A stretch of DNA of 64,000 bases from a virus: the IMG/VR virus record IMGVR_UViG_3300045988_066341, one strand, 5' to 3'. A program made the position numbers and the translations under genes. Under the pieces are notes generated by a model that saw only the letters and a program-made list of their open reading frames with translations, made no database searches and was not told where the DNA came from. Positions 11,445-30,829 of the stretch are shown piece by piece (the first letter of the stretch is position 1; each line of letters opens with the position of its first letter).

Positions 11445-11941
11445 GAGGTAGGATGTTACCGTGTGAGAGATGCGGAAGGATGGTAACCATAAGGAGTAAG
11501 GGGTTGTGTCCCGCATGCAGAGCCAAGGAGCTACCACCAAAGGAAAGGGCGGCGATACGGGTGAAGGCCAAGCCAAAGGGGAAGAGCCTAGCCGTTTTCT
11601 TTGGCGCCCATGTGGCTAGATTGAGTATGACAAGGAGATCTGCTACCGGCGCATACATACCATGCCCGGGGGTAAGCAACATATGCCACTTATACCCTAA
11701 ACGGAAATATAAATCAGTTGCTGAGGATAATGATAACATTATCTACTTGACGGCTGATGAGCATACAAGATTCGATTATCTATTAGATACGATGGATTTC
11801 AGCCGGCTCTTGGACGAGTTTGGCAACGTATGGCTGTTGGCAGCCAGAAGGATGAGGGATCTCGCACCTAGAGTCGAGGAGGATGGTAAATTAAAAACCA
11901 GATTATTATCATGGATAGAAGAAAACAAAAATTACTTCTAG
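11441..11941 (+). CDS. zinc-ribbon protein with HNH-like motif
   Basis: N-terminal CERCG...CPAC, then CHLYPKRKY...NDNIIYLTADEH, which resembles an H-N-H arrangement. The call is tentative. Confidence 0.5.
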   Translation: MRGRMLPCERCGRMVTIRSKGLCPACRAKELPPKERAAIRVKAKPKGKSLAVFFGAHVARLSMTRRSATGAYIPCPGVSNICHLYPKRKYKSVAEDNDNIIYLTADEHTRFDYLLDTMDFSRLLDEFGNVWLLAARRMRDLAPRVEEDGKLKTRLLSWIEENKNYF

Positions 11942-13344
11942 CTCTTGGATACGAGGCTATAAGTGATACGATATATAAGAAAGGAATGGATATGGAAGTC
12001 ATAAGCGATCAAGAATCGTTTGATGATATGAGAGTCCGTTTATCCAAAAAACATCGTGTGGTTATCACGGATGATGGCATTGTAATAGAGTTTGTTCATA
12101 ATAAGCCAATGGACGAGAATGCGCCATCATATTATTGGCGATCATCATTACCAATATTAAGATCATATCATACAGATCCTAAATTTACCGCTTTCTTTGG
12201 CATATTAGACGTTTTGTCAACGATCCCAAAGAAAGATATGGTTGAGGAGGAAAAGCCTGTTGAGGAACCTAAAAACGAGCCTAATGAGGAGATGGAGGTT
12301 GAGTATGATCTGGAGACAGAGCAACAGTATTATGCCGCTGAATGGATAAAGGATATCCCGACACCTGTGTTATATAGAATGACTGTAGCCGGCAAACGTG
12401 TGTATTATGAGATGGATGTTGATGGGTATCCTATCATATACGATGGAGCCACTAACAATATCGCCAATGGGTATTGTGATACGTCCGGAGCCTTGGAGAA
12501 GTGGAAGAATGAGATGAGGCTCAAGGGTAAGGATCCTGATGAGTACGCTAACTACAGGGCTGATCTGGGTACTATCATGCATTATCTATTTGGGTTGTAT
12601 CTGACAGGGGTTAACATAAAGCTGATCCCGACATGGATCAGGAAGGTGGTCAAGGAAGCCAAGCTAAGAATAGACAAGTATAGGATGGAGCGGATATTAG
12701 TGGATAACATTGATGAACTGATAGAGGATCTGATATCATTTGCCATATTCTGCAAGGAAAGACATGTAAAACCTGTATTGATCGAAAAGATGTTGAGGTC
12801 AAGGAGATTGAAAGTAGCTTCTTCGGTGGACGCAGTGGTGGAGATGGATGGCGAGCCGGAGATGGTGGAGATAGAGGTCGAGACAGGAGAGTTCTATAAG
12901 ACGGGAGCCAAGAAAGGTCAGCCTAAGACGGAGAAAAAGAAGATAAAGAGATGCAGGAGGATATTCGCTATATTGGACTTCAAATCAAACAGGAAAGGCA
13001 ATTTCTATGACGAGTATGCTTTCCAACTTGAGTTATATAGAAGAATGATATTAGAGAACTATGGAAAGATATTGGAGATAGAGGAGATATATAACTTCGC
13101 TCCGGGTGATCCTACCGCAAAGACCAGCCAATATAAGTTGAAGAGACAGACTGACAACCCTATATTGAATATGGCTACCGTAGTATATCTTCAAGGAAAG
13201 TATAAGTTCGAGAAAACTAATTATACGGTTACATCAAGAATCGGATCCTTAGATATAGAAGGCGAGTTTGATGTTAATAAGTTGGTAAGGAAAGAGCCGC
13301 TGAGGGACTATATATATAGAGTCATGAATGAGAGGAGAGGGTGA
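11911..13344 (+). CDS. PD-(D/E)XK-family nuclease domain protein (477 aa)
   Basis: C-terminal half carries VDAVVEM ... ILDFKS ... QLELY (D / D-x-K / Q-x3-Y, as in RecB/Cas4-like nucleases). Confidence 0.6.
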   Translation: MDRRKQKLLLALGYEAISDTIYKKGMDMEVISDQESFDDMRVRLSKKHRVVITDDGIVIEFVHNKPMDENAPSYYWRSSLPILRSYHTDPKFTAFFGILDVLSTIPKKDMVEEEKPVEEPKNEPNEEMEVEYDLETEQQYYAAEWIKDIPTPVLYRMTVAGKRVYYEMDVDGYPIIYDGATNNIANGYCDTSGALEKWKNEMRLKGKDPDEYANYRADLGTIMHYLFGLYLTGVNIKLIPTWIRKVVKEAKLRIDKYRMERILVDNIDELIEDLISFAIFCKERHVKPVLIEKMLRSRRLKVASSVDAVVEMDGEPEMVEIEVETGEFYKTGAKKGQPKTEKKKIKRCRRIFAILDFKSNRKGNFYDEYAFQLELYRRMILENYGKILEIEEIYNFAPGDPTAKTSQYKLKRQTDNPILNMATVVYLQGKYKFEKTNYTVTSRIGSLDIEGEFDVNKLVRKEPLRDYIYRVMNERRG

Positions 13345-14303
13345 TGGAATTTAGGGAGTTCAATAAGAGCGTTCATCGGTATGAGCTGGATCATAGCAAA
13401 CCAAGGAGGAAGCTGACGTGCCCGCAATGCGGCAAGGATAAGTGTTTTACGCCGTACGTGGACGTAACCACCGGTCAGATCGTTGGAGAGCAGTTTGGGG
13501 TGTGTGATCATAAAAACAGGTGTGGTTATTTTAAATACCCTACAGGGAATGAGCTTAAAGACAACGACCTTTTTGTAGACTCAAATAAAGTATTAAGAAG
13601 ATACAGACCCCCGGTGGACCCGGATATAGCCAATTGTATTCCGGTGAGTAAGATGTTTGATACGCTTAATCCTTTCGAGACGTCGGATCTACAAGATTAT
13701 TTATCCAATATATTTGGGTCATATCATACCAACAAGGCGTTTAACCTCTATAAGGTAGGGATGATGAGGTTCGGGGATTGGGGTAAATGTTGCGTGTTCT
13801 GGCAACTTGACAAGAACTGGACGATCCGGACAGGTAAGATAATGGATTATGGACCTGATGGCAAGAGGGTGAAGATTCCTATGGATCATGTGTGCTGGGT
13901 TCATGTCATGAATGGTCAAGATTATTTATTGAGACAATGTTTGTTTGGTGAGTTTCTTGTCAACTTCTATCCTAAAGACGCTCCGGTGTATATAGTTGAA
14001 TCTGAGAAGACGGCGGTCATATGCAACATTGTATATCCGGATAGACTTTTCATGGCATGCGGAGGTATCCATATGCTGAAAAGAGAGATGATAGAGACAT
14101 TGGGGCGCAGGAGGATAGTGTTGTATCCTGACAAGGGATCGGCGTTTAACGAGTGGAAGAAGAAGGTGGATAGGGATATGAGGGGGATGAATATCGAGAT
14201 AAGTGATTTTCTTGAATCAAAGCCCAATATAAATGAGGGAATGGATATAGCTGATTATTTTATCATTAAACAAAACAATAATAACAATGGCAAAAGTAGT
14301 TGA
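13344..14303 (+). CDS. DNA primase-like protein (zinc finger + Toprim)
   Basis: N-terminal CPQCG-x27-CDHKNRC zinc-binding pattern. The C-terminal IVESEKTA ... LYPDKG pattern fits a Toprim Glu and acidic motif. The start was moved from GTG 13341 to ATG 13344. Confidence 0.65.
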   Translation: MEFREFNKSVHRYELDHSKPRRKLTCPQCGKDKCFTPYVDVTTGQIVGEQFGVCDHKNRCGYFKYPTGNELKDNDLFVDSNKVLRRYRPPVDPDIANCIPVSKMFDTLNPFETSDLQDYLSNIFGSYHTNKAFNLYKVGMMRFGDWGKCCVFWQLDKNWTIRTGKIMDYGPDGKRVKIPMDHVCWVHVMNGQDYLLRQCLFGEFLVNFYPKDAPVYIVESEKTAVICNIVYPDRLFMACGGIHMLKREMIETLGRRRIVLYPDKGSAFNEWKKKVDRDMRGMNIEISDFLESKPNINEGMDIADYFIIKQNNNNNGKSS

Positions 14304-15467: not shown

Positions 15468-15720
15468 ATATTATAGGACACATCCGGAAGCCAGAAAGAA
15501 GAAGGCTGAGACGGACAAGAAGATTAATGCTCGTCCTGAACAGAAAGCCAAGAGACGGGAGTTGGGTCGCAAGAACTACAAGACCGATAAGTTGAAGGGG
15601 AAGGCTTATCGGAAAGGGAAGGACCTATGCCATACGGCTAAGGGGTTAAGATATAAATCAAGATCAGCTAACAGAGGATCTAAATCCGATACGGCTGGCG
15701 ATAGAAACGCAAGAGGATGA
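15451..15720 (+). CDS. highly basic small protein (89 aa)
   Basis: Track ORF 15424..15720, with an in-frame ATG at 15451. Lys/Arg-rich throughout. Confidence 0.45.
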   Translation: MGKSTEYYRTHPEARKKKAETDKKINARPEQKAKRRELGRKNYKTDKLKGKAYRKGKDLCHTAKGLRYKSRSANRGSKSDTAGDRNARG

Positions 15721-16859
15721 GTGAGGATAGGATATGGAGGTCATCCAAGGAGATCATCATGGATGCCTATGAGAGGATAAGAAAGTATCAGTCGGGAGAG
15801 CTTCTCCCGGCTCGTACTGGATACGCTTATCTTGACAAGGCGTTACTGGGCGGGTTCTACCCACAACATGCGGTGGCTATAGGCGCTAGGCCCGGAGTTG
15901 GCAAATCTTATCTGGCGCAAAAAATCATGAGCAATGTGATGAATGTCAATATCAATCCACAGGCAGATGATTATGTATGGTTAAGATGTGAGTTTGAGAT
16001 GAACCCAGAAGATTTGATGTTACGTTCACTATCAAAAAAAATGGGGAAAGACATACAAGATATACTCCTTAACGAGATGTCAGAAGATGAGGTAAAAGAA
16101 ATGCAGAGATGCCTCAAGGAAGAGAACTCTAGCAGAATAACATACATCCCTAAACCATCAACCGTAGATGAGCTTCAAAACTTTCTATGGAATGAGTATA
16201 TGCCAATAAACAAGGATAAGAAAATGGTATTCGTGTCTATAGATCATACGGCTCTAGTACAAGGTTCAGGAGACGCCAAAAGAAATATCGACTCGTTGAT
16301 AACCATGTGTAATATCGCTAAAAGAACTTTTCCTAATATTTTCTTTCTTATAATATCCCAACTCAATCGTGATATCGAAGGACGGCGGGATCCAAAGGAT
16401 CATATGCCAAAGCAATCTGATTTTTATCAATCAGATACATTGGGACAGTTATGTACGGCTATGGTAGCGTTAAATATACCGAAAAGATACGGGTACTCCT
16501 CATACATGCAATTTCCGCAAGGATGGTATCCTAATCTGGAACGTTTTAAGAGCGAGTCAAGACGATCCTTCCGTGTGGATGGATTATTGTTCCATCATAT
16601 CGTAAAGGTCCGTCAAAGATCATTGGAGGAGATTGACGCTATACATGTAGATATCATGAAAGGATATGAGCGATATTATCCTGATGGAGGGGTGGTGCGC
16701 CAAGAAAGACCGGGAGGCTCGGATGCCCCTGTGGGTAGCGGCAAGCCGGACACGACTGTGGTGACGCTGCCGCCCCCGCCTCCCAGTATCCCGTTGGAGC
16801 AACAATATATACCGCCTAGTGATGATTTCAATATAGTACATGACGAAACACCTTATTGA
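15717..16859 (+). CDS. DnaB-like replicative helicase (RecA-type C-terminal domain) with Pro-rich tail
   Basis: Walker A GARPGVGKS, Walker B VFVSIDH, and the DnaB-type ISQLNRDIEGR motif. The tail reads LPPPPPSIP...DDFNIV. Confidence 0.8.
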   Translation: MSEDRIWRSSKEIIMDAYERIRKYQSGELLPARTGYAYLDKALLGGFYPQHAVAIGARPGVGKSYLAQKIMSNVMNVNINPQADDYVWLRCEFEMNPEDLMLRSLSKKMGKDIQDILLNEMSEDEVKEMQRCLKEENSSRITYIPKPSTVDELQNFLWNEYMPINKDKKMVFVSIDHTALVQGSGDAKRNIDSLITMCNIAKRTFPNIFFLIISQLNRDIEGRRDPKDHMPKQSDFYQSDTLGQLCTAMVALNIPKRYGYSSYMQFPQGWYPNLERFKSESRRSFRVDGLLFHHIVKVRQRSLEEIDAIHVDIMKGYERYYPDGGVVRQERPGGSDAPVGSGKPDTTVVTLPPPPPSIPLEQQYIPPSDDFNIVHDETPY

Positions 16860-17502
16860 CATGAGATTGAGACATAATTACCTGCTTGTAGTGATAAAGG
16901 TGCTGGAAATGTTCTTGAAGACCGTATTGTCGGTTGAGGATAAGATGGGGATAAAGGAAATTATATCCTCGTTGAAGGAAATGGCTAAATACAGCATCAG
17001 ATATATCATAAATCGGGAACGGGAAAAGGAGATCATGAGTATCTGTGATGAGGTATCCAATAAAGTACAGGAGTATAAAAGGATAAATGACAACTCAATG
17101 ATATTGGAATTGGAGAACCTAAAAAGGGAAGTTGTGGCGGTGGAGGATCTTCTTAGCTCATACAAGGGGGTTCTTGACGCCGAACTGGTGATAGCCGAGG
17201 ATGATATCAGAATCATACGGGACAAGATCGCTATAAGCCTGAGGGAGGACGGAACATGTAAGAGCATGACTGATGCTGATAAAAGGGCTAGGGTGGACGT
17301 AAGATACGAGAGGGCGTTAGAGGATTATCGAATCCTTCTAAGATGCGCCAATACGGTTAGGGCTAAGATGTCGGTTGTAGGGCATCTTAACCAATCTATA
17401 AATCAATCTATATCAGTTGGTAGAGTTGGTATGGCTAATGAATCTTATACAGTAAAACAGTATGAAAAAGGGAAAGAGATTATCGAAAGCAGACGCCCTT
17501 AG
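16840..17502 (+). CDS. hypothetical coiled-coil protein (220 aa)
   Basis: ORF track; the start is uncertain. Confidence 0.5.
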   Translation: MTKHLIDMRLRHNYLLVVIKVLEMFLKTVLSVEDKMGIKEIISSLKEMAKYSIRYIINREREKEIMSICDEVSNKVQEYKRINDNSMILELENLKREVVAVEDLLSSYKGVLDAELVIAEDDIRIIRDKIAISLREDGTCKSMTDADKRARVDVRYERALEDYRILLRCANTVRAKMSVVGHLNQSINQSISVGRVGMANESYTVKQYEKGKEIIESRRP

Positions 17503-17800
17503 GGTGTTGAGAAGAGCTTACGATCTAATAAAGAATGATAATTATACATTTATGTGCAGAGCAATAGAAAAGGCAGCGGTTGAATTATCACTTGCTGAAA
17601 GATCATGTGTGGCGTGTTATCTTATACCAGAACTGAAGATGTTCAAACCTGTAAACAGAAAAAATGGAGATTTTTGGTTTCATTCATCAAAGAAAAACAT
17701 AAGGTTACATATAATAGATACGCTAATAGATATATATAACGGAAATGATCATCCCGATATAGTCGAGAGGGTAGCCAGAAAGATAAGGTCAATATTTTAA
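17462..17800 (+). CDS. hypothetical protein (112 aa)
   Basis: ORF track; 41-nt overlap with the upstream gene. Confidence 0.5.
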   Translation: MKKGKRLSKADALRVLRRAYDLIKNDNYTFMCRAIEKAAVELSLAERSCVACYLIPELKMFKPVNRKNGDFWFHSSKKNIRLHIIDTLIDIYNGNDHPDIVERVARKIRSIF

Positions 17801-17811: not shown

Positions 17812-18510
17812 ATGTATATAAATTTTGAACAGATGATGACATCAGGGTTAACGATGTCTGATGTCGGGTATCTTTTGATGATCCGGCAGAAAGAGGAGAT
17901 GGCTAGCGTCATTCCAAAGGAGAAAATAGATAGTTATAAAGCATCTGGTTATATCGAGCTTCAGAAGAATGGGAAGTGGAAGATAACGCCAAGGGGAGGG
18001 TCGCTGCTGATGCTGATAGAGACACCCGGCCTGACACCGGAGGTCGAGGGGATCCGGGACCGTATCGTTGGGGTATATAACGATATGGGTAAGGATACAG
18101 GAGCTATCAAGGAGGTAGAGAAACGGCTCGTATGGTTCGTGGCTAATACCAACTTCAAGGAAGAACCTATAGTAAGAGCCGTAATATCCCACATAGATCT
18201 TAAACGTGAGTATACGATGAGATTGGATAACTTGATCTGGAAACCATCAAATGTGTATAGCGTGCATATGAGTTTATCGGAATCAACGTTATTCGATACG
18301 ATCATAAAAATGTATGGCATGACGTCTGACTTGTATCTTAGGGAGAACAAGGACAAGGAGCTGGCATGGTTGTTCGCCATAAGCCGGCTTCCGGATCCCC
18401 CAAAGAGAATGGATAAGGAATACGCTATCACAGGCGATGTTAAGATGGATATCGAAAGGATATCGGATATAAAAAAAGAATTAGGTAGAAGATTGAAAAT
18501 GTCAATTTAA
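17812..18510 (+). CDS. hypothetical protein (232 aa)
   Basis: ORF track; co-oriented. Confidence 0.6.
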   Translation: MYINFEQMMTSGLTMSDVGYLLMIRQKEEMASVIPKEKIDSYKASGYIELQKNGKWKITPRGGSLLMLIETPGLTPEVEGIRDRIVGVYNDMGKDTGAIKEVEKRLVWFVANTNFKEEPIVRAVISHIDLKREYTMRLDNLIWKPSNVYSVHMSLSESTLFDTIIKMYGMTSDLYLRENKDKELAWLFAISRLPDPPKRMDKEYAITGDVKMDIERISDIKKELGRRLKMSI

Positions 18511-18511: not shown

Positions 18512-18796
18512 ATGGAAAGAAAAGAAATTGAAAAAGTAGTCAAGGAAGTGATCTTTGAGAAGATGGGTGAATTTACGGGTTTTAATCATGCTGCCGAGAT
18601 CGATAACGAGGATGGGCTAGCGACTGACATGGCTATGGATTCCTTTGACTACGCAGAGGTGGTGATGGAAATAGAGAAAAGGATGGGTATATCTATACCT
18701 GATGAGACACTAAACATCAAACCTTATACTAAACTTACGGTAGGGGAATTTATGGATATATTATATAATTATCTAAATAATCATGGAGAGAGATAA
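18512..18796 (+). CDS. acyl carrier protein-like protein (Ser retained)
   Basis: LATDMAMDSFDYAEVVMEIEKRMGISIPDE aligns with the ACP helix II region [27 protein letters not shown]. Ser44 is the codon TCC at 18641-18643. Confidence 0.75.
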   Translation: MERKEIEKVVKEVIFEKMGEFTGFNHAAEIDNEDGLATDMAMDSFDYAEVVMEIEKRMGISIPDETLNIKPYTKLTVGEFMDILYNYLNNHGER

Positions 18797-19067
18797 AATA
18801 TTGAAACTAGCCAGAAAAGAGATATTTGAAAAAATGCATAAGTTCAATTACATTAATAATATAGAGGTAATTGATGATGTAAAAGAAGATAGTAATTTAT
18901 CATCTGATCTGGCTATGGATCCATTTGATTTATTAGAGGTGTTGATGGATATTGAAGAGAAGATTGGTATAAGGATATCGGATGATGTCTTCGGTGATAA
19001 ACCTGTTGATGAACTAACTGTAGGGATTTTTGCGGATATGTTGTATGATTGGTTTAAGAGTAAGTGA
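18783..19067 (+). CDS. acyl carrier protein-like paralogue lacking the phosphopantetheine Ser
   Basis: SSDLAMDPFDLLEVLMDIEEKIGIRISDD. Pro (CCA 18921-18923) replaces the Ser. The gene overlaps the upstream ACP-like gene by 14 nt. Confidence 0.7.
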   Translation: MERDKILKLARKEIFEKMHKFNYINNIEVIDDVKEDSNLSSDLAMDPFDLLEVLMDIEEKIGIRISDDVFGDKPVDELTVGIFADMLYDWFKSK

Positions 19068-19091: not shown

Positions 19092-19114
19092 AAGAGGGGT
19101 TAGAAACCCCTCTT
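19092..19114 (+). other. perfect 10-bp inverted repeat (AAGAGGGGTT aga AACCCCTCTT)
   Basis: Read directly from the sequence. It lies after the second ACP-like gene. No U-tract follows, so it is not a canonical terminator. Confidence 0.7.
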
Positions 19115-19151
19115 GTCGATGATTGTGATGACGATCATGAGGAGGAAGAAT

Positions 19152-19574
19152 ATGATTTCAGTTAAGGAGTTAAGGCCTGGCAATCTTGTAAAAGACAAAG
19201 CTGGCGATATATGGAGAGTAGGGTGCGTTACCGGTATGCGTAATGAAAGTGGATCATTAATCCTTGAACGTGAGGTTGATGATGGGATAATGAAATGGTA
19301 TTCAGGGGAAGATGATATCATGCCTATTGAGATAGACGATAACCTTCTTGACGCTATCGGTTTCAAGAGTGACAAGAATAGGGACGTATATCGTGGACAC
19401 GGGATGACCATGGAGGTTTTTGGCGACGAGTATTATCTCGGACTTAGGGATATGGAGGATGACCTGAGCGAGCTTATCCAGATAAGGTATTTGCATAACC
19501 TACAGAATATTTCGATGGATTTATATGAGCGTGACATAAATACGGAGAGGCTTTATGATCGTTCCGGAGAATAA
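19152..19574 (+). CDS. hypothetical protein (140 aa)
   Basis: The track ORF 19113..19574 starts inside the hairpin. The in-frame ATG at 19152 is preceded by AGGAGGAAGAAT. Confidence 0.55.
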   Translation: MISVKELRPGNLVKDKAGDIWRVGCVTGMRNESGSLILEREVDDGIMKWYSGEDDIMPIEIDDNLLDAIGFKSDKNRDVYRGHGMTMEVFGDEYYLGLRDMEDDLSELIQIRYLHNLQNISMDLYERDINTERLYDRSGE

Positions 19575-20580
19575 CTTGCTATGTAAGACCATAGGCGGTG
19601 AGAAGGTGCTTGCCGCATCCTACTCACAGATAGACACGTTTGTCCAATGTCCGTATAAGTGGTATAAGACTTACGTGGAGGGTCACAGATCCACGGAGAA
19701 GCACGAGGCTACGTCATATGGTACGGTTATCCACCAGACAATGGAGTATTTCTTCAAGAACGGATGTAGACCTTCTTATGAGGATATGAGTAAGGCTTTC
19801 AATTACTATGCGGATATAGAGAAGATTCCTTTTGATAGCGTAAAATCCCAGATCGAGTCTATGCAACATGCGGCTAGGTTAATAAGATGGATTGTGGGGT
19901 TGTTTGAGAAGGATGCCGCTGGCAATTATAAGAAGACGTGGTCCGATCTTACGCCAATGGAGAAGGTGATCCGGGGGTCGAGACCGGCCGGCGTGGAGGA
20001 GGGCTTCGTCCTGCCCTATAAGCTGCCCAAGCCCCTTACCTTGGATGGCGTGACGTACGATAAGGTACATATCATAGGATCGGTGGACTGGCGTGGAGAG
20101 TATAAGACAAAAGACAGGATAGCTATGTATACGATAGACTGGAAGTCCGGGAGAAAGTTATTCGATGAGGATAAGCTGCTTCACAATCTCCAGCATCCGA
20201 TATACGCCTTTTACATACTCAGAAAATATAAGGTATTGCCGGATATGTGCAGCTATTTCTTTACCCGCATGCTGGACAATCAGAACGTGAAGGTAGATAA
20301 GGAGAAAGTAGAGAGATCGGTCAAGGAACTTAACGATATTCTCCTTGACATGTATGATTTCGAGACAAATAAAATAGATAGCTATCAAGCTCACGTTTGG
20401 GACGACGCCAAACAGGGGTATAAGTACGAGAAGCGCTACCTCATGGGACGCCAGCCGGCCTGCCTTGAACCCCGCCCCAAGCCCTTGTGTTTTTGGTGCG
20501 ATTTCTCGATCCACAAACAAGGGACATGCAGGTACTCATCGGATTGGGATGATTCAAAAAGAAAGAATAAAAAAGATTAA
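19555..20580 (+). CDS. Cas4/RecB-like PD-(D/E)XK exonuclease with four-Cys pattern
   Basis: N-terminal VQCPYKWY. Core motifs are SVDW...IDWKSG...QHPIYAFY. C-terminal CFWCDFSIHKQGTC. Confidence 0.75.
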   Translation: MIVPENNLLCKTIGGEKVLAASYSQIDTFVQCPYKWYKTYVEGHRSTEKHEATSYGTVIHQTMEYFFKNGCRPSYEDMSKAFNYYADIEKIPFDSVKSQIESMQHAARLIRWIVGLFEKDAAGNYKKTWSDLTPMEKVIRGSRPAGVEEGFVLPYKLPKPLTLDGVTYDKVHIIGSVDWRGEYKTKDRIAMYTIDWKSGRKLFDEDKLLHNLQHPIYAFYILRKYKVLPDMCSYFFTRMLDNQNVKVDKEKVERSVKELNDILLDMYDFETNKIDSYQAHVWDDAKQGYKYEKRYLMGRQPACLEPRPKPLCFWCDFSIHKQGTCRYSSDWDDSKRKNKKD

Positions 20581-20639: not shown

Positions 20640-21236
20640 ATGATTATGGATAAAAACGAAAGAGAAAAACAGGTATTGGATCTTCTGATGTCTAGAAAGG
20701 ATATCAGGAAATTGGTAGAGAAATCAAATGAATGTTATTCTAAAATGGATTTCGTTGGCGCCATGAAATGCCGGCAGGAGATAAAGGATATCGTAGACCG
20801 GGAATCGAAGATCATGTTGACAAAAAGCGAGTCTTTGGTGAGTTTGATGAACAACGCTGATAATGAATATAAATTCAATATGCTGGTATGGCTACATTCC
20901 ATGATGTGTATGGCAGATGTGTTTAACGGGATATTGGAGGATTTCAAGGATGGGGTAAGGAAAGCCAATGGCAACTCTAAGTTCGTTAAATTCGATAATC
21001 TGGATCGGTTGATGACGGAATGCAAGAAGGAGATTGATTACCTAATGAAAGGTACAAGTAAATCGTTTCAGATATCTTTCGCCGTAAGAAGCGATGAGTT
21101 AAGGGAGATGATAGAGAATATGGTTGGAGACAATATCCGAGAAGGGTATGACATATTCAAGGAAGAGGCTAAGATGACCAAAGAGACAGACAGGAGCAAG
21201 ATAGAGGAATTTAATAAAAGGCTGGACCATGAGTAA
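20640..21236 (+). CDS. hypothetical protein (198 aa)
   Basis: ORF track. Confidence 0.6.
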   Translation: MIMDKNEREKQVLDLLMSRKDIRKLVEKSNECYSKMDFVGAMKCRQEIKDIVDRESKIMLTKSESLVSLMNNADNEYKFNMLVWLHSMMCMADVFNGILEDFKDGVRKANGNSKFVKFDNLDRLMTECKKEIDYLMKGTSKSFQISFAVRSDELREMIENMVGDNIREGYDIFKEEAKMTKETDRSKIEEFNKRLDHE

Positions 21237-21408
21237 ATTTGATGTAAAGATAGGTGATATAGTTCATACCCAGATAGGGATAGGAGAGGTGATAGCCATA
21301 AGCAAGACCAAAAAGACTTTGATGGTAAAAATGGACGATGGCCGGGAATGTGCGATAAGACTAGAGTACGTGAAAGACGTTTTTGATAACTACAGAGATG
21401 ACATATAA
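21229..21408 (+). CDS. hypothetical small protein (59 aa, below ORF-track cutoff)
   Basis: Read by eye: MSKFDVKIGDIVHTQIGIGEVIAIS... It overlaps both neighbours at stop/start and fills an otherwise empty 146-nt gap. Confidence 0.45.
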   Translation: MSKFDVKIGDIVHTQIGIGEVIAISKTKKTLMVKMDDGRECAIRLEYVKDVFDNYRDDI

Positions 21409-22858
21409 ATTAAGGCCATATCAAGAGGAGTGTGTTAAAAGTATCTCCGATTACATAAACTCTGATAGACATGATCCGGTATTGATCATAGGTCCTGTAG
21501 GTTGCGGTAAGTCACTTCTGATAGCAGAAGCGGCTAGATTGATGGGAGATAAGACGCTGATTTTACAACCATCAAAAGAATTGCTGCAACAGAACCACGA
21601 CAAGATAACGTCGTATGGCATACCGGCTACCATCTACTCCGCTTCCTGTGGCAAGAAAGAGCTATCTAACATGATATATGCCACGTTAGGATCTATCAAG
21701 AAAGTTGTTGGTCAGCTTAAGGAGATGGGAATCAGAAACGTATTGATAGATGAGGCTCATGCCGGATACAGTCCTGAGGATGGCAGTGAGTTCATGACAT
21801 TCATGAATGAGCTGAAGCCGAGAAAGGTGATAGGGTTTACAGCCACGCCATGTAGACTTAAAAACATGTCGATAGGACAGACATCATATTCCCAACTTAA
21901 TTTCATCACTCGTATGAGACCGGTGTATTTCAAGAATCTGATTCACGTGATACAGGTAGAGGAGATGATAAGGCAAGGATTTTGGACGCCTCTTAAGTAT
22001 GAGACATGGGATTTCAATGGAGATGCCCTTAAACTCAATTCTAACGGCTCCGAATATACGGCTGAGTCTATTAGTGAGGCGGTGAGAAAAAATGGCTTAA
22101 ACAACCTTATTTTGCGTCGATTGATGGTATTAAAAGACGTATGTAGATCTATACTGGTGTTTATGGATTCTGTTGAGAGCTGCAATACTGCCGCCGAATG
22201 GATGAACGCCAAGATATGTGCCGGCATGGCGGAGGTGGTTCACGGAGGCACGCCAAAGAAGCAGCGGGAGGCTATAGTTGAGAGGTTCAAGTCGGGTAAG
22301 ACGAAGGTAGTGTTCAACTATTCCGCCCTCGGTACGGGATTCGATCATCCGGGTCTGGACTGCGTGATAGTAGGAAGACCGACATTTTCGTTCTCTTCGT
22401 TTTATCAGTGGCTTGGCAGGGCGGTCAGGATAAAGGACGGTAAAGGCAGCGCATTAGTCGTTGATTGTTGCAACAACTCGTCAAGGTTCGGCGATATAAG
22501 GAAACTTAGTATAGAGAACTACAAAGGATATGGATGGGGGATGTTTATCGGCGATAGACTAATTACCAATATCCCGATGGGAGATAAGGTAACGAAAACG
22601 GATCTGGATATCAAAGCCGCCAAGAAAGACCGAAGGAGGGGGCTGGCGCAGGGCATTACCGCCTCCCCTGTACCCGGGAGGCCGGATCATCCCCTTGGCT
22701 CTACGGTAATAACATTCGGGAAATATTGTGGGTGGATGTTGCATTCGATCCCAGTATCGTACCTCAAATTCATAAACGAGACATTTGACCGGGATAATGA
22801 TAGGAACAAGGATATAAAAGAATACATAGATTTTTTAATCAAAAACAACAGATTATGA
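21398..22858 (+). CDS. SF2 DEAH-box helicase with C-terminal DUF3820-like tail
   Basis: Motifs are LRPYQ, GPVGCGKS, LIDEAH, TATP and QWLGRAVR. The tail FGKYCGWMLHSIPVSYLKFI resembles DUF3820. The start was moved from TTG 21383 to ATG 21398. Confidence 0.85.
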   Translation: MTYKLRPYQEECVKSISDYINSDRHDPVLIIGPVGCGKSLLIAEAARLMGDKTLILQPSKELLQQNHDKITSYGIPATIYSASCGKKELSNMIYATLGSIKKVVGQLKEMGIRNVLIDEAHAGYSPEDGSEFMTFMNELKPRKVIGFTATPCRLKNMSIGQTSYSQLNFITRMRPVYFKNLIHVIQVEEMIRQGFWTPLKYETWDFNGDALKLNSNGSEYTAESISEAVRKNGLNNLILRRLMVLKDVCRSILVFMDSVESCNTAAEWMNAKICAGMAEVVHGGTPKKQREAIVERFKSGKTKVVFNYSALGTGFDHPGLDCVIVGRPTFSFSSFYQWLGRAVRIKDGKGSALVVDCCNNSSRFGDIRKLSIENYKGYGWGMFIGDRLITNIPMGDKVTKTDLDIKAAKKDRRRGLAQGITASPVPGRPDHPLGSTVITFGKYCGWMLHSIPVSYLKFINETFDRDNDRNKDIKEYIDFLIKNNRL

Positions 22859-23721
22859 CAGGATGTATATATCATGAGGCTGATCTTGACGGAGTAATGT
22901 CAGCGGCTATAGTAAAAAAGTATCTCAAAGGGGACATTGATCTTCTTCCTTACAATTACGGCAAGGAAATACCTGACGTGAATAAATATGATAAGGTGTT
23001 TGTAGTTGACGTGTCATTTGGAAACAGAACAAGATTCCTTTTCGATGAGTGGAAAGAGAAAGGTATAGATGTCGTATGGATAGACCATCATAAGACCGCC
23101 ATAGACGATATGAGGGATTACGAGGTAAAGGGCAAGAGGCGTATCGGGGCGGCGGCCTGTGAGCTTACGTGGGAATATCTTTTCGATGACATCAAAACTC
23201 CTAATGTGGTAGAATTATTGAGTGCTTATGATGTATGGGATCACGACCGGTTCGAGTGGAGTGATGTCATGGCGTTCCAGTACGGGATGAGGGGATATTG
23301 CGGTCTTGATGTAAACATTGTTAAGGATGTACTAGATAAAGCCGATAACAACTTAGTGAATGATATGATAAATAACGGGGAGGCTATAATAGAGTATATA
23401 GTAGAGAAAAACAGAGGGGAGATGAATATGTTCTCATTCGAGGCAGATATATTTGGATACAAGGCGATATGTATGAATACTACGGAGTTTAACTCCACCA
23501 CATTCGAGTCCATGTACGATCCTAGAAAACATGATTTGATGATGCCATTTTGCTGGAACGGCAGATTCTTCAGATGCTCGTTCTATACCACCAAGGAGGA
23601 GGTGGATGTCTCGGCGCTGGCACGCAAGGTCAACCCCGGCGGCGGCGGTCATAAGGCGGCGGCAGGCTTCCAGCTTAGCGCAGAGGATATGATGGAGTTC
23701 CTAAAGACAAAGAAAATGTGA
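22855..23721 (+). CDS. DHH/DHHA1-family phosphoesterase (RecJ/NrnA-like)
   Basis: Motifs are YHEADLDG, VVDVS, WIDHHKT and the C-terminal GGGHKAAAGF. ATGA-coupled to the helicase gene. Confidence 0.85.
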   Translation: MTGCIYHEADLDGVMSAAIVKKYLKGDIDLLPYNYGKEIPDVNKYDKVFVVDVSFGNRTRFLFDEWKEKGIDVVWIDHHKTAIDDMRDYEVKGKRRIGAAACELTWEYLFDDIKTPNVVELLSAYDVWDHDRFEWSDVMAFQYGMRGYCGLDVNIVKDVLDKADNNLVNDMINNGEAIIEYIVEKNRGEMNMFSFEADIFGYKAICMNTTEFNSTTFESMYDPRKHDLMMPFCWNGRFFRCSFYTTKEEVDVSALARKVNPGGGGHKAAAGFQLSAEDMMEFLKTKKM

Positions 23722-23722
23722 T

Positions 23723-24091
23723 ATGATATGGGTCTTGCTTAGTATGGCAGTGATTATGTTATCCATAGCTGTAATGGTGAAAGGTTGGGATGATTTACAT
23801 GAAGGTATGTTCCACGGAGGATTAATTATGATAGCTATAGGAATAATATCAATATCTGCATCAATATTTTATATGAATGAAGGAAATATTAAAAATATGG
23901 AGAATATGAAAAACGTATATAAGTTCAAAAAACTTAGCAAAATGAAGCTAGACGATTACGGCTTCGGTTTATTCGAGTACAATGGCGTTCTTTATTTCAA
24001 GGAGGCAGATGAAGGGAGATGCTTTGATGTAAGGAGCGGGAATGAGGCTATTATCGGAAAAGATAAGATTATAATGACCTTGGAGGATTGA
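23723..24091 (+). CDS. membrane protein (two N-terminal hydrophobic helices)
   Basis: Hydrophobic segments IWVLLSMAVIMLSIAVMV and GGLIMIAIGIISISASIFY. Confidence 0.55.
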   Translation: MIWVLLSMAVIMLSIAVMVKGWDDLHEGMFHGGLIMIAIGIISISASIFYMNEGNIKNMENMKNVYKFKKLSKMKLDDYGFGLFEYNGVLYFKEADEGRCFDVRSGNEAIIGKDKIIMTLED

Positions 24092-24315
24092 TTATGAGAA
24101 AGCTTGACGACACCAATAGGACAAGAAAGAGAAGCGTGCGGCACTCGTGGGTAAAAGCAGGTCCGGGGATCCAACGCTGCGCTATTTGTGGGATCACGAA
24201 GCGAAGTGAGTATATAGACGGGAAGACCGTTCATTGCGTGCATCTATCATCTGGTGAGCTTTACTCTATGACAGGTGAGACGCCAGAATGCAGGGATCTT
24301 AGTGAATTTTATTAA
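24088..24315 (+). CDS. small zinc-ribbon-like protein (75 aa)
   Basis: ORF track; CAICG...HCVH pattern. Confidence 0.5.
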   Translation: MIMRKLDDTNRTRKRSVRHSWVKAGPGIQRCAICGITKRSEYIDGKTVHCVHLSSGELYSMTGETPECRDLSEFY

Positions 24316-24331
24316 TCTAAATTACGAAAAT

Positions 24332-24637
24332 ATGACATGGTATAATACTTACGAGGAGATAAAAGCCAAATATCCGGATACTGTTTTTGAGGAATATTGG
24401 TTGGTAGAAGAAGATGTCGCTAAATTAATGGGGCATGAACCTATTATAAAAGGATGGACTATAATCAAAAATGATCCTAATATAGATAGCAACATTATAT
24501 CTAGTAACAAATCAAATATCAATGCTATTGAAGCCGATAAAAATGAGGGCGATGAGCGCAATATATTGTTGCATATTGGGATATTATCCCCATTTAATGA
24601 TGATCCAGTAATAATAATAAAACAAAAAGGAGTTTAA
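24332..24637 (+). CDS. hypothetical protein (101 aa)
   Basis: The track ORF 24275..24637 overlaps the upstream gene. The in-frame ATG at 24332 does not. Confidence 0.5.
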   Translation: MTWYNTYEEIKAKYPDTVFEEYWLVEEDVAKLMGHEPIIKGWTIIKNDPNIDSNIISSNKSNINAIEADKNEGDERNILLHIGILSPFNDDPVIIIKQKGV

Positions 24638-24638
24638 A

Positions 24639-25271
24639 ATGAAGGAGGAATTTTATAAGTATCAAAAGGTGGTCTATGATGGCGATGTGTTTGAGGTAGT
24701 TGAGACCGCTGATAAAAGTGGAAGAATGAGAATCAGACTATGGTCGGATGAAGTAGATGAGATTATTTGGGTTGATGAGGAGATGGTCGTATCATTAGGT
24801 AGAGCTATTAAGTTAAAACTTATTAATGAGGAAAAGGTAGACAATGTAAACGCTTACGATCTTTCCCGTTTCAATAATATTAATAGTGCATCCATCATTA
24901 AAGCCCACCAAGAGGAGGTAGCCAGGGCATGTAAGACTGCCGTAGGGAAAGACGGTAGCGGGAAGGACGACCGGGCCGACGGTAAACTCCGGTGGGATCT
25001 CCTTCCTTTGGCTGAGATAGAGGACATCGTGAGGGTATATACGGAAGGTGCCAAGAAGTACGCTGATAACTCATGGCAGGATATACCTGATGGGTTCAAT
25101 CGTTATCTAGGTGCACTCATGAGACACTTGGTCGCTTATACGAAAGGGGAGAGATATGATAAGGAGGGATTCATGCATCTATCCGCCGTATGCTGGAATG
25201 CCATAGCGTTATTATATTACGATAAACATAACAAAGGGCTTATAGAATGGAAGAGTCAGGAAAAAGAGTAA
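24639..25271 (+). CDS. protein with DUF5664-like (dATP/dGTP diphosphohydrolase N-terminal-like) domain
   Basis: GKLRWDLLPLAEIEDIVRVYTEGAKKYADNSWQ...LMRHLVAY...HLSAVCWNAIALLYY matches my recollection of that phage domain. Confidence 0.6.
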   Translation: MKEEFYKYQKVVYDGDVFEVVETADKSGRMRIRLWSDEVDEIIWVDEEMVVSLGRAIKLKLINEEKVDNVNAYDLSRFNNINSASIIKAHQEEVARACKTAVGKDGSGKDDRADGKLRWDLLPLAEIEDIVRVYTEGAKKYADNSWQDIPDGFNRYLGALMRHLVAYTKGERYDKEGFMHLSAVCWNAIALLYYDKHNKGLIEWKSQEKE

Positions 25272-25582
25272 AAAGAGTAGTAGATGAGGGATTAAGAGCT
25301 ATCGACAAAAGAACGGGTAAATACGTTAATGTAATCAAGCGCACTATTGATGATAGCCTATTCCCGATAGTTAAGTATCTCAGTTACAGTTATAATGAAT
25401 TAAATTATGATTATGTAAAGAATCTGAATTTTGATGTAAACGTAAATTGGGAGCAGCGTAGATATCAGATTGTTAAGGATTTATTATCTAACAATTTCGA
25501 TGGGAGAAAGATGAGTATAGATGAGGTAGATAACGCTATATTTACAGCGGATTTAATTATTAACAGATTAAAAACTATTTAA
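25247..25582 (+). CDS. hypothetical protein (111 aa)
   Basis: ORF track. Confidence 0.5.
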   Translation: MEESGKRVKRVVDEGLRAIDKRTGKYVNVIKRTIDDSLFPIVKYLSYSYNELNYDYVKNLNFDVNVNWEQRRYQIVKDLLSNNFDGRKMSIDEVDNAIFTADLIINRLKTI

Positions 25583-25583
25583 A

Positions 25584-25859
25584 ATGGTAAGAATCGATTT
25601 CTTTACGAAGAAAGACGCTGAATACAGCGACTACATGCGATATATTATCGCCAACACATTACAGGAGTATGAGGGTGAGGTTACGTTGAACCAGATCCCG
25701 GAGAACAAGGCCACGGAGGAGGAAATATCCAAGTACGGTATAGAGGTATACCCTACTATTATCATCAGTGGAGATAATATGGATGGCTTTAACAAACTTG
25801 AGGGGATGGCCAGAAAGGCTGATCTTATTAACGTCATGTCATTATACGATAAGAAATAG
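25584..25859 (+). CDS. glutaredoxin/thioredoxin-fold-like protein without CxxC
   Basis: IDFFTKKDAEYSD occupies the position where CPxC is expected. The VYPTIIISG cis-Pro region is retained. Confidence 0.45.
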   Translation: MVRIDFFTKKDAEYSDYMRYIIANTLQEYEGEVTLNQIPENKATEEEISKYGIEVYPTIIISGDNMDGFNKLEGMARKADLINVMSLYDKK

Positions 25860-25863
25860 GCTC

Positions 25864-27009: not shown

Positions 27010-27015
27010 TTTGAA

Positions 27016-27348
27016 ATGAAGAAGATAAATGACTGGGTTATAAAAACATTTGGGTTGAGAGGTTCATGGAGCTGGGCTAAGAAACAGATGTTAAATGGAG
27101 CTATCATTAAACGTAAGGCTACTACAGGGACATACAAAATAGCTATTGATGATGACAAGAATAGGTTACTTGTAGCCACATGGGATCATCTAGATCAAAG
27201 TCCTGTATGGGAAAGGTGCCCACATAGTTTATTAGATGAAGATGCGGTTGATTATTTTGTCACAGCTCATAAGGAATTATCATATGGAGGCATAAAGATC
27301 AGGATGAAAGATGAATTTAATTGTAACGATAAAATATCGAAAGTATGA
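27016..27348 (+). CDS. hypothetical protein (110 aa), weak DUF2829-like pattern
   Basis: SWSWAKKQMLNGAIIKR ... LLDEDAVDYFV loosely resembles the DUF2829 termini. The call is tentative. Confidence 0.5.
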   Translation: MKKINDWVIKTFGLRGSWSWAKKQMLNGAIIKRKATTGTYKIAIDDDKNRLLVATWDHLDQSPVWERCPHSLLDEDAVDYFVTAHKELSYGGIKIRMKDEFNCNDKISKV

Positions 27349-27584
27349 AAAAGATTACTGATAAAGACGTAGAGCGCCTTAAAGCCGGGAAGAAGATAAC
27401 AAAAGGATTTATCCATATGCAATTAGATGATAAGGGAAGATTGAACTTGTGGAGTGATATCAACATAACTGACAATTATAGAAGTCTTAAGATAGACGCT
27501 AACAAATTGTTTGATCATGGGATTCTTTCAGAGGGATATGATAAATTGAGAGTTATAAATATAGGACAACAGGGACGAAGGTAA
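27345..27584 (+). CDS. hypothetical protein (79 aa)
   Basis: ATGA overlap with the upstream gene. Confidence 0.5.
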   Translation: MKKITDKDVERLKAGKKITKGFIHMQLDDKGRLNLWSDINITDNYRSLKIDANKLFDHGILSEGYDKLRVINIGQQGRR

Positions 27585-27784
27585 TGAAAGTGCATATTAT
27601 TAATCATCGCTGCGGTGACGATGAAATAGAAGTTAAAAATGGCATACGAGTTTTTGATTGGGTTGGGAATGAGTTTATTATCAATCTAAATAATTTTGGG
27701 GAACTGGAAATAAATGGATTGAATGAAGGTTTATGCATTATACCTCAATACGGGAACCAAATTGTCATAAAGAAACAGATTTAA
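27584..27784 (+). CDS. hypothetical protein (66 aa)
   Basis: 1-nt overlap with the upstream stop. Confidence 0.45.
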   Translation: MKVHIINHRCGDDEIEVKNGIRVFDWVGNEFIINLNNFGELEINGLNEGLCIIPQYGNQIVIKKQI

Positions 27785-27854
27785 AGCAACGCATGACGCT
27801 ATGGACTGGGAATTTAAGATTGAAAACATTGAATCATAATTTAATTTAATAGAC

Positions 27855-28130: not shown

Positions 28131-28143
28131 TATAATTTAAAAG

Positions 28144-30825: not shown

Positions 30826-30829
30826 AAAT

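What the first reader, a model, noticed from the sequence alone, without database searches (positions are those of the whole stretch)
18512..19067. Tandem orphan acyl-carrier-protein-like genes, the second without the phosphopantetheine serine
Two overlapping 94-aa paralogues both align with the ACP helix I-II region. The first keeps the DS motif (MDSFDY, Ser codon at 18641-18643). The second has Pro at that position (MDPFDL, 18921-18923). No phosphopantetheinyl transferase, acyl-ACP synthetase, ketosynthase or other partner enzyme is recognisable nearby. The neighbours are unknown proteins and a Cas4-like nuclease, and a perfect 10-bp hairpin follows the pair. An ACP pair in a phage early region, one of them non-modifiable, suggests two possibilities. 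It could serve a carrier role in an unrecognised modification pathway. It could also mimic or titrate host ACP partners.
Basis: partly seen in the sequence, partly recalled or inferred. Interest (0 to 1): 0.65.

Follow-up and report, generated by a model that had tools for sequence, protein, structure and literature searches.

The report
Serine-less acyl-carrier-like proteins in crAss-like phage
A widespread ~150-kb crAss-like gut phage carries one or two small proteins with the acyl-carrier-protein fold but no pathway to serve, and the commonest version has lost the serine every true carrier needs, so they probably work by binding a partner rather than carrying acyl groups.

Summary
Two overlapping 94-aa genes (18512-18796 and 18783-19067) are 43% identical paralogues. 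Both pass the Pfam PP-binding threshold and both model as four-helix ACP folds. A keeps the Asp-Ser motif; B has Pro at that position.

New findings:
- The phage is crAss-like, about 150 kb, with BACON domains that suggest a Bacteroidales host.
- The ACP gene sits in an accessory slot of the replication block. More distant relatives have one canonical Ser-bearing ACP there, an unrelated small gene, or nothing.
- The pair is a lineage-specific tandem duplication. It repeatedly collapses by recombination into a single A/B chimera.
- The commonest chimera has Pro (CCC, one step from TCC) and occurs on at least 1000 public contigs. Its Ser form occurs on 49 and its Phe form on 57.
- B-type proteins have Pro, Leu or Ile in 117 of 118 cluster representatives.
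- The acidic helix-II docking residues are invariant.
- dN/dS is 0.2-0.5, against 0.02-0.1 for neighbouring genes.
- No PPTase, ligase, ketosynthase, acyltransferase or second ACP was found in the window, or in the 102 kb read directly from a single-copy-Pro genome.

Best reading: a phosphopantetheine-independent ACP-fold binder (decoy or adaptor). It is a new variant of the known but unexplained orphan phage ACPs. The function is untested.

The parts
18512..18796 (+). ACP-A: 94-aa ACP-fold protein that keeps the Asp43-Ser44 motif (Ser codon TCC at 18641-18643)
   Evidence: ORF. PF00550 26.9 bits against a cut-off of 20.8. AF2 helices 3-22, 44-58, 64-67 and 77-91. All top PDB fold hits are ACPs. 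This exact sequence is on 790 public contigs.
18783..19067 (+). ACP-B: 94-aa paralogue with Pro47 (CCA at 18921-18923) where the phosphopantetheine Ser should be, and a 3-residue acidic insertion in loop 1
   Evidence: 43% identical to A. PF00550 23.2 bits. AF2 pLDDT 75.5 with Pro47 as the first residue of helix II. All top fold hits are carrier proteins. 117 of 118 B-type cluster representatives lack Ser.
18783..18796 (+). 14-nt overlap of A's stop with B's start, containing a (GA)4 tract at 18786-18793. One extra GA fuses A and B in frame.
   Evidence: Sequence. Locus L004 has (GA)5 and one 185-aa A-B ORF.
19092..19114 (+). Conserved intergenic hairpin after the ACP gene(s): perfect 10-bp stem, 3-nt loop, no T-tract
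   Evidence: Fold -28.9 kcal/mol for the 81-nt context, z -4.4. Present in tandem and single-copy genomes, with variation only in the loop and closing pair. Not called a terminator.
17812..18510 (+). Conserved 232-aa protein of unknown function. Its stop lies 1 nt before the ACP-A start. It forms the left border of the accessory slot.
   Evidence: No Pfam, PHROG, PDB or PADLOC hit. 96-100% identical across the clade, dN/dS 0.02-0.13. Its homologues in more distant phages are followed by a canonical ACP, an unrelated small gene, or directly by the nuclease.
19113..19574 (+). Variable 153-aa protein (phrog_10066, function unknown) between the ACP pair and the nuclease
   Evidence: PHROG hit. Only 46-100% identical among genomes that are otherwise about 95% identical. 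dN/dS 0.16-0.26 wherever dS is large enough to estimate.
19555..20580 (+). PD-(D/E)XK (Cas4/RecB-like) nuclease, the right border of the slot
   Evidence: PF12705 E 4.6e-21. PHROG exonuclease families. The same gene follows the slot in every relative examined except L082/L083.

Best explanation
ACP-A and ACP-B are real, selected proteins with the acyl-carrier-protein fold. They are accessory cargo in the replication gene block of a ~150-kb crAss-like gut phage.

Most likely they do not carry acyl groups. They probably act as phosphopantetheine-independent binders. They would dock through the conserved acidic helix-II face, plus a hydrophobic or Pro residue at the former Ser position, onto the basic ACP-binding site of a partner protein.

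The partner I favour is one or more host ACP-client enzymes or regulators. The phage protein would then behave as a permanently 'apo' ACP that competes with host ACP, as a form of host takeover. The alternative target, a phage protein, is listed as a rival.

Shown here: the fold, the paralogy, purifying selection, dispensability of the Ser, conservation of the docking residues, and absence of partner enzymes. Inferred: that binding is the function, and what the target is.
For: 1. The Ser is dispensable.
- B-type proteins have Pro, Leu or Ile in 117 of 118 cluster representatives.
- 38 of 70 IMG/VR loci have a single A/B chimeric gene. Of these, 31 have Pro, 6 Ser and 1 Phe.
- The chimera's Pro codon is CCC, one step from TCC. 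B's is CCA. So the Ser was lost independently at least twice.

2. No backup carrier exists in the sequence read. My own ACP HMMs find no other ACP-like ORF in the window. They find none in L167 or in 102 kb of a single-copy-Pro genome.

3. No partner chemistry exists. Pfam finds no ACPS/PPTase, AMP-ligase, ketosynthase, acyltransferase, reductase, dehydratase or thioesterase in any of that sequence.

4. The docking face is kept. D46, E49, I62, D64 and T76-G78 are invariant, and D43 and E55 are >=90% conserved across A, B and chimeras. By my numbering, these correspond to E. coli AcpP D38, E41, I54, D56, T63-G65, D35 and E47.

5. The genes are not decaying. ORFs are intact on hundreds of contigs, and dN/dS is 0.17-0.56.

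6. They evolve fast and as a mosaic, like host-interaction genes. dN/dS is 3-10 times that of the flanking genes (0.02-0.10). Identity is 63-78% in genomes whose neighbours are 90-100% identical.

7. The slot is accessory.

8. Precedents exist. Apo-ACP inhibits glycerol-3-phosphate acyltransferase more strongly than holo-ACP and stops E. coli growth (PMC3896788). Plasmodium mACP (Ser to Phe) works without Ppant through binding alone and keeps the Glu residues at +5 and +11 (PMC8547962). Those positions are E49 and E55 here.
Against: - A-type proteins keep Ser in 60 of 65 representatives. The ancestral single ACP in relatives L084 and L085 has a canonical DLGLDSLD motif. The Ser therefore matters in some lineages or conditions.
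- No partner was identified. No binding or toxicity data exist.
- About 12-15 kb of the genome was never read.
- Two parts of the Pro-type genome (1-15.5 kb and 35.7-54.9 kb) were judged only through their counterparts in the window.
- One search listed 25 of 40 Pfam families. The 15 not shown appear to be weaker hits (E above about 1e-3), but I did not see them.
- The AF2 models have only moderate confidence.
- Elevated dN/dS could reflect relaxed constraint rather than an arms race.
Confidence: 0.5

Rival explanations
1. ACP-A is a genuine carrier. Host AcpS would modify it, and it would feed a host pathway, or an unrecognised phage pathway, for lipid, LPS or sugar acylation. B would be a regulatory or chaperoning paralogue.
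For: A keeps Asp-Ser-[Phe/Leu]-Asp and the helix-II residues that AcpS recognises. Ser is retained in 92% of A-type representatives. The ancestral single-copy ACPs in this slot are canonical. Many cultured phages carry Ser-bearing orphan ACPs.
Against: The most abundant genotype has only a Pro version and no other ACP in the 102 kb read directly from such a genome. No acyl-handling enzyme was found anywhere examined. A and B fail every NCBIfam ACP equivalog cut-off, with best scores of 41 and 30 bits against 71.
Confidence: 0.22
2. The proteins are small structural or adaptor subunits of a phage replication or recombination complex, for example with the translationally coupled 232-aa protein or the PD-(D/E)XK nuclease. 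ACP plays a comparable role as a subunit of mitochondrial complex I, of NFS1-ISD11 and of the Ycf2-FtsHi motor.
For: The position in the replication block and the 1-nt gap to the upstream gene. The best PDB sequence hits are complex-I ACPM subunits. Fold hits include ACP subunits of non-FAS complexes.
Against: Homologues of the 232-aa protein and the nuclease occur together without any ACP in relatives L079, L081 and L086, so the module does not need it. ACP alleles do not co-vary with neighbouring alleles. No LYR-type partner was detected.
Confidence: 0.15
3. They are acidic DNA-mimic or anti-restriction decoys that merely reuse a small acidic helical fold.
For: pI 4.2-4.5 and net charge -10 to -15. 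Early-block location. Fast evolution.
Against: The conserved residues are exactly the ACP partner-docking set, not a DNA-like charge array. There is no match to any PADLOC model, though PADLOC holds defence-system proteins rather than anti-defence proteins, so this is weak evidence. Canonical ACPs are equally acidic.
Confidence: 0.05
4. They are decaying remnants of a captured host ACP and have no function.
For: dN/dS is higher than in the neighbours, the Ser has been lost, and deletions and fusions are frequent.
Against: dN/dS is well below 1 and B is highly conserved. ORFs are intact on hundreds to thousands of contigs. The gene has been kept while the flanking 232-aa protein diverged to 55% identity.
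Confidence: 0.04

Closest known systems
Orphan acyl carrier proteins of phages (PHROG 5934; annotated in Olleya phage Harreka_1, Prochlorococcus P-HM1, Ralstonia phiRSL1 and others)
   Same: A small ACP gene among early or replication genes with no acyl-pathway partner. The literature calls their function unclear (PMC5463345). Duplicated ACPs are reported in Flavobacterium jumbophages (PMC13573597).
   Different: The cultured-phage examples I read keep the Ser. Here one paralogue, and the dominant single-copy form, lack it. This clade is also divergent: 10-15 residues longer, with a loop insertion before helix IV, and only 24 relatives below E 1e-10 among 1.84 billion proteins.
Bacterial AcpP (TIGR00517), the fatty-acid-synthesis carrier
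   Same: Four-helix fold, the DSL-type motif in A, an acidic helix II, and the I-P-D and T-V-G motifs.
   Different: Scores of 33 and 28 bits against a cut-off of 70.45. B has no Ser. There is no fab, PPTase or other partner context.
Apicomplexan mitochondrial ACP (Plasmodium mACP, Ser to Phe)
   Same: An ACP fold that has lost the Ser to a hydrophobic residue yet stays under selection. The Glu residues at +5 and +11 from that position are kept (PMC8547962). It works by protein binding alone.
   Different: No LYR/Isd11-type partner is detectable here. The lineage (phage) and the residues (Pro, Leu, Ile, Phe) differ. Ser and non-Ser forms coexist and recombine.
Apo-ACP as an inhibitor of E. coli glycerol-3-phosphate acyltransferase
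   Same: An unmodified ACP that binds ACP clients non-productively and blocks growth (PMC3896788). This is the proposed mode of action.
   Different: That is an overexpression effect of the cell's own ACP, not an evolved inhibitor. Nothing here shows toxicity.

Membership tests
Carrier-protein superfamily (Pfam PP-binding, PF00550) | Sequence match above the curated gathering score | tested here: met
   A scores 26.9 bits and B 23.2 bits against 20.8.
Carrier-protein superfamily (Pfam PP-binding, PF00550) | Four-helix bundle with the motif residue at the N-terminus of helix II | tested here: met
   AF2 gives helices I-IV in both, with Ser44 or Pro47 as the first residue of helix II. pLDDT is 71 and 75.5, which is moderate. 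The top 50 Foldseek PDB hits are all carrier proteins, though their E-values are weak.
Functional holo-ACP (AcpP type, TIGR00517 and related NCBIfam equivalogs) | Conserved Ser in the Asp-Ser-Leu motif for 4'-phosphopantetheine attachment | tested here: not met
   A has Ser44, but B has Pro47. 117 of 118 B-type representatives lack Ser. The dominant single-copy form has Pro.
Functional holo-ACP (AcpP type, TIGR00517 and related NCBIfam equivalogs) | Score above an equivalog cut-off | tested here: not met
   Best scores are 41.1 (A) and 30.5 (B) bits against 71. For TIGR00517 they are 33.2 and 28.1 against 70.45.
Functional holo-ACP (AcpP type, TIGR00517 and related NCBIfam equivalogs) | Actual phosphopantetheinylation and acyl loading | not testable with these tools
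   This needs mass spectrometry of the expressed protein.
Functional holo-ACP (AcpP type, TIGR00517 and related NCBIfam equivalogs) | Genomic association with a PPTase or an ACP-using enzyme | tested here: not met
   None in the 64-kb window. None in the 10 kb to its left. None in 82 kb of a sister genome. About 12-15 kb of the genome was not read.
Orphan phage ACPs (PHROG 5934) | Match to the PHROG profile | tested here: met
   E 9.7e-10 for A and 1.1e-6 for B.
Orphan phage ACPs (PHROG 5934) | A lone ACP gene among early or replication genes without acyl-pathway genes | tested here: met
   Context. The same pattern is seen in Olleya phage Harreka_1 and Flavobacterium phage FL-1.
Ppant-independent ACP adaptors (apicomplexan mACP type) | Ser replaced by a non-modifiable residue while the protein stays under purifying selection | tested here: met
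   True for B and the single-copy chimera, with Pro, Leu, Ile or Phe at that position and dN/dS 0.17-0.5. Not true for A.
Ppant-independent ACP adaptors (apicomplexan mACP type) | Retained helix-II Glu residues at +5 and +11 | tested here: met
   E49 is invariant and E55 is >=90% conserved. In B these are E52 and E58. The criterion comes from PMC8547962.
Ppant-independent ACP adaptors (apicomplexan mACP type) | An LYR-motif (Isd11-like) binding partner | tested here: not met
   No Complex1_LYR-type Pfam hit among any ORF scanned. A non-LYR partner cannot be excluded.
Known anti-phage defence components (PADLOC) | Match to a PADLOC model | tested here: not met
   No hits for A, B or five neighbouring proteins.

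The most novel reading that the evidence does not exclude
The serine-less ACP is an evolved 'dead carrier'. It would be a phage-encoded competitive plug for host ACP-client enzymes or regulators, such as those of fatty-acid, phospholipid or lipid A synthesis. One of the most abundant human-gut phage groups would use it to reprogram Bacteroidales metabolism. The recurrent Ser-to-Pro/Leu/Phe changes would be adaptive, either by escaping host AcpS modification or by binding more tightly. If so, this would give the long-unexplained orphan phage ACPs their first mechanism.
Probability: 0.25. Interest if true: 0.75.

Novelty: new variant of a known kind. Interest (0 to 1): 0.5.

Why it matters
Orphan ACP genes are scattered through many phage genomes, and their role has never been explained. 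This clade offers a natural experiment. Ser-bearing and Ser-less versions coexist, recombine and replace each other, and the Ser-less form dominates. That argues the phage function does not need the prosthetic group, and it points to specific experiments: modification mass spectrometry, partner pull-downs and toxicity tests. The phage belongs to the crAss-like group, among the most abundant viruses of the human gut. A host-metabolism decoy in it would be relevant to Bacteroidales physiology.

Tried and rejected
- The INPHARED phage collection holds only unannotated fragments of this lineage (near-DNA and tblastn searches), so no annotated reference exists.
- The 'DUF1493' name that one source gives a homologue led to nothing useful in the literature.
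- PDB sequence searches of the flanking 232-aa and 153-aa proteins gave nothing significant. PADLOC gave nothing.
- The genome-collection scan returned a 'Vibrio olivae' contig that is simply this phage, probably a contaminant. It also returned a Bacteroidaceae ACP in what looks to me like an aryl-polyene or flexirubin-type cluster. That ACP shares the MERKEIE start but is only 34% identical, too weak to call an origin.
- I tested whether the ACP is tied to the upstream 232-aa gene. It is not: distant homologues of that gene lack the ACP.
- I looked for co-variation between ACP type and the variable neighbouring genes and found none.
- The hairpin as an intrinsic terminator is not supported, because it has no T-tract.
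- A full-genome check could not be finished.
- Literature searches for ACP in crAss-like phages, and for serine-less phage ACPs, found no report in the library searched.

Full report
**Observation.** The window has two + strand ORFs of 94 aa, at 18512-18796 (A) and 18783-19067 (B). They overlap by 14 nt. A has TCC (Ser) at 18641-18643 within MDSFDY. B has CCA (Pro) at 18921-18923 within MDPFDL. The two are 43% identical, E 7e-25.

Both exceed the Pfam PP-binding gathering score, with 26.9 and 23.2 bits against 20.8. Both match PHROG 5934 'acyl carrier protein'. Against PDB sequences they hit only ACPs, and those alignments put Ser44 of A and Pro47 of B on the Ser of the DSL motif.

AlphaFold2 models built from 120- and 96-sequence alignments have moderate confidence: pLDDT 71 and 75.5, pTM 0.58 and 0.66. 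Both show the four ACP helices, with residue 44 or 47 as the first residue of helix II. The top 50 Foldseek PDB matches of each model are all carrier proteins, TM about 0.5-0.65. Foldseek E-values are weak (>=0.03), as expected for so small a fold.

Both proteins fail every NCBIfam ACP equivalog cut-off, with best scores of 41 and 30 bits against 71. They have the ACP fold but are divergent.

The perfect 10-bp hairpin at 19092-19114 is real, z -4.4, and is conserved in the family. It lacks a T-tract.

**Context.** The pair lies in a replication and recombination block on the + strand:
- an exonuclease at 11911-13344;
- a DUF6371 plus Zn-ribbon protein at 13341-14303, which I read as primase-like;
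- a DnaB-like helicase at 15717-16859;
- three unknown proteins;
- the ACP pair;
- a variable 153-aa unknown protein;
- a PD-(D/E)XK nuclease at 19555-20580;
- a DEAD/ResIII helicase at 21383-22858.

A Pfam scan of about 100 ORFs across the 64-kb window found no PPTase, AMP-ligase, ketosynthase, acyltransferase, reductase or thioesterase. BACON domains point to a Bacteroidales host. Later scans of a sister genome found the Crassvirus major capsid and tail-ring protein families. The phage is therefore crAss-like, with a genome of about 150 kb. It is very common: 472 IMG/VR contigs carry one of its tail-end proteins.

**Evolution of the locus.** I fetched 70 IMG/VR loci carrying an A homologue:
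- 29 have the tandem A(Ser)+B(Pro) pair;
- one has an in-frame A-B fusion, made by one extra GA in the (GA)4 tract of the overlap;
- 38 have a single 91-aa gene;
- one is cut by a contig end;
- one (L070) is an unrelated, canonical phage ACP.

The single 91-aa gene is a chimera, with an A-like N-terminal part and a B-like C-terminal part. At least three different junctions occur, so unequal crossing-over has collapsed the pair repeatedly. Among these single-copy genes, 31 have Pro, 6 Ser and 1 Phe. In 30 of them the Pro codon is CCC, one step from A's TCC. It lies in the A-derived part, whereas B uses CCA. The Ser was therefore lost independently at least twice.

Exact-sequence look-ups give the scale. 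The same protein with Ser is on 49 contigs and with Phe on 57. The window's A is on 790 and its B on 254.

Among 239 cluster representatives at 90% identity:
- A-type proteins keep Ser in 60 of 65;
- B-type proteins have Pro in 102 and Leu or Ile in 15 of 118, with Ser once;
- chimeras keep Ser in 36 of 49, the rest having Leu, Pro, Thr or Phe, and this column is the 7th most variable of 91.

**What stays constant.** Across A, B and chimeras, D46, E49, I62, D64, L75, T76 and G78 are invariant. D43, V50 and E55 are at least 90% conserved. By my numbering these are the AcpP helix-II and loop residues D38, E41, I54, D56, T63-G65, D35 and E47. From established ACP structural biology, these contact partner enzymes.

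Pairwise dN/dS against the window is 0.17-0.56 for the ACP genes in nearly all comparisons. For the DnaB-like, 232-aa, nuclease and helicase genes of the same genomes it is 0.02-0.10. ACP identity falls to 63-78% where the neighbours stay at 90-100%. The genes are under purifying selection, but they evolve much faster than their surroundings and in a mosaic pattern.

**The slot.** Homologues of the upstream 232-aa protein exist in more distant phages:
- At 64% and 55% identity (L084, L085), the same slot holds one shorter, canonical ACP with DLGLDSLD.
- At 45% identity it holds an unrelated 94-aa protein that looks like a lipoprotein.
- At 42% and 38% identity it is empty.
- At 34% identity it holds an unrelated 83-aa protein.

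So the ACP is accessory cargo that was acquired once. It began as a single Ser-bearing ACP and was kept through considerable divergence. In the ~150-kb clade it was then lengthened and duplicated, and it lost the Ser.

**Is it truly orphan?** I walked along a single-copy-Pro genome, IMGVR_UViG_3300045988_063110 (152,251 bp). Seven loci with identical overlaps merged into 82,036 bp. Together with L037 this gives 102 kb read directly.

Two ACP HMMs that I built find no other ACP-like ORF at E<=1 in that sequence, in L167 or in the window. One HMM is generic and one is clade-specific. Pfam on the 65 ORFs of the 82 kb shows RecA, a PIF1 helicase, KilA-N/ANT/Bro domains, HNH, a TnpB-like protein, rubredoxin and crAss capsid and tail proteins. 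It shows no acyl or PPTase enzyme. One search listed only 25 of 40 families. The 15 not shown appear to be weaker hits (E above about 1e-3), but I did not see them.

The 10 kb left of the window has 23 small genes with no Pfam hit. About 12-15 kb of the genome remains unread. The Pro-type genome's 1-15.5 kb and 35.7-54.9 kb were judged only through their counterparts in the window.

**Wider family.** A profile search of 1.84 billion representatives gives only 24 hits below 1e-10, so this is a tight and divergent clade. Among the nearest 150 representatives the DS motif is the rule. A few ACP-like domains without Ser do occur, often as the last repeat of predicted multi-ACP lipoproteins.

Canonical orphan ACPs occur in 86 cultured-phage records, including small Bacteroidota phages of 43-53 kb. 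The literature describes phage ACPs as being of unclear function (PMC5463345). It also notes duplicated ACPs in Flavobacterium jumbophages (PMC13573597).

**Interpretation.** The Ser-less form dominates in public assemblies. The Ser has been lost repeatedly to Pro or to hydrophobic residues. The docking face is kept, and there is no partner chemistry and no backup ACP. Together these make an obligatory carrier role unlikely. They favour a phosphopantetheine-independent binding role.

Two precedents show this is feasible. Apo-ACP inhibits the E. coli glycerol-3-phosphate acyltransferase more strongly than holo-ACP and arrests growth (PMC3896788). Plasmodium mitochondrial ACP (Ser to Phe) works purely by binding Isd11-Nfs1 and keeps the Glu residues at +5 and +11 (PMC8547962), which correspond to E49 and E55 here.

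I favour a host ACP client as the target, because the locus is accessory, fast-evolving and mosaic. A phage partner is possible. A true carrier role for A, using host AcpS, remains a serious rival, because A-type proteins keep the Ser in 92% of representatives. All functional statements are inferences, since nothing here measures modification, binding or phenotype.

**Verdict.** This is a new variant of a known but unexplained kind, the orphan phage ACPs. Its main value is as a natural experiment suggesting that the phage function does not need the prosthetic group.

Noticed in passing
window 39951-63973 (- strand); L125, L168, L247, L328 and L407 of contig IMGVR_UViG_3300045988_063110: The window comes from a crAss-like phage of about 150 kb. 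A sister genome has the Crass_capsid, CrAss_Ring_1 and CrAss_Ring_2 families and BACON domains. 472 IMG/VR contigs carry the protein whose 1040-aa C-terminal part is at 60851-63973. That protein is 1623 aa in full.
   Followed up: partly
window 17462-17800 and 19113-19574: Two small unknown genes near the ACP locus are also hypervariable. The 112-aa gene is 57-100% identical across genomes, with dN/dS up to 0.9 in close comparisons. The 153-aa gene is 46-100% identical. The genes around them are 90-100% identical.
   Followed up: partly
window 18786-18793; L004 10272-10290: A (GA)4 tract sits in the A/B overlap. A (GA)5 variant in one contig fuses A and B into one 185-aa protein. Two other cluster representatives, P0001 and P0131 (158 aa; only P0001's sequence was read), appear to be A fused to a B lacking helix I. 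I could not tell whether these are real variants or assembly errors.
   Followed up: partly
window 21229-39685 (+ strand; the ORF was not localised): One ORF matches the N-terminal domain of dATP/dGTP diphosphohydrolase (PF18909, E 4e-25), which I recall as MazZ-like. The same block has a C5 and an N6/N4 DNA methylase, a polynucleotide kinase 3'-phosphatase domain and a DHH/DHHA1 protein. This hints at manipulation of the dNTP pool or DNA modification. No PurZ-like hit was seen.
   Followed up: no
window 39954-63973 (- strand; the ORF was not localised): One ORF matches the Tad2-like (Thoeris anti-defence 2) domain, PF11195, E 1.5e-22. Another has an ANT antirepressor domain.
   Followed up: no
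window 39951-47237 (-): A 2428-aa protein matches a PHROG virion structural protein over residues 1712-2374. It also has an N-terminal SAM-methyltransferase domain at residues 128-234.
   Followed up: no
L071 (NZ_JBHMEP010000024.1, 'Vibrio olivae' CECT 8064, 7057 bp): This contig, filed under a Vibrio genome assembly, encodes the same DUF6371 protein, DnaB-like helicase, 232-aa protein and the start of an ACP gene as this gut phage. Contamination of that assembly seems likely.
   Followed up: partly
P0250, P0253 and P0256: These are predicted lipoproteins or secreted proteins with two or three tandem ACP-like domains. The last domain, or in P0256 both domains, lacks the Ser (motifs DE, DD, DG). 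Their source and genomic context are unknown. They may relate to the 'duplicated ACPs with lipoproteins' island reported in Flavobacterium jumbophages (PMC13573597).
   Followed up: no
L248, L249, L253, L258, L261 and others: Many contigs of about 150 kb start or end roughly 600 bp upstream of the homologue of L168:74-1039. This suggests a fixed physical genome end, or a repeat that breaks assemblies.
   Followed up: no
merged L567/L487/L407 region of contig 063110 (about 97-137 kb): The region has OrfB_IS605 / Cas12f-like TnpB, RRXRR and HNH hits, pointing to mobile-element insertions in the phage genome. It also encodes RecA, a PIF1-like helicase and a rubredoxin. Further along the same contig, a 1507-aa protein carries 15 DUF5977 repeats (L328:12083-16603).
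   Followed up: no
L073 3585-3830 (Bacteroidaceae MAG DAIRSI010000034.1): A cellular ACP starts MERKEIEEIVKK, like the phage proteins, and is 34% identical to them. It sits among FabG-like, ketosynthase, methyltransferase, acyltransferase, dehydratase and second-ACP genes, which by eye looks like an aryl-polyene or flexirubin-type cluster. It is a possible but unproven source lineage.
   Followed up: no
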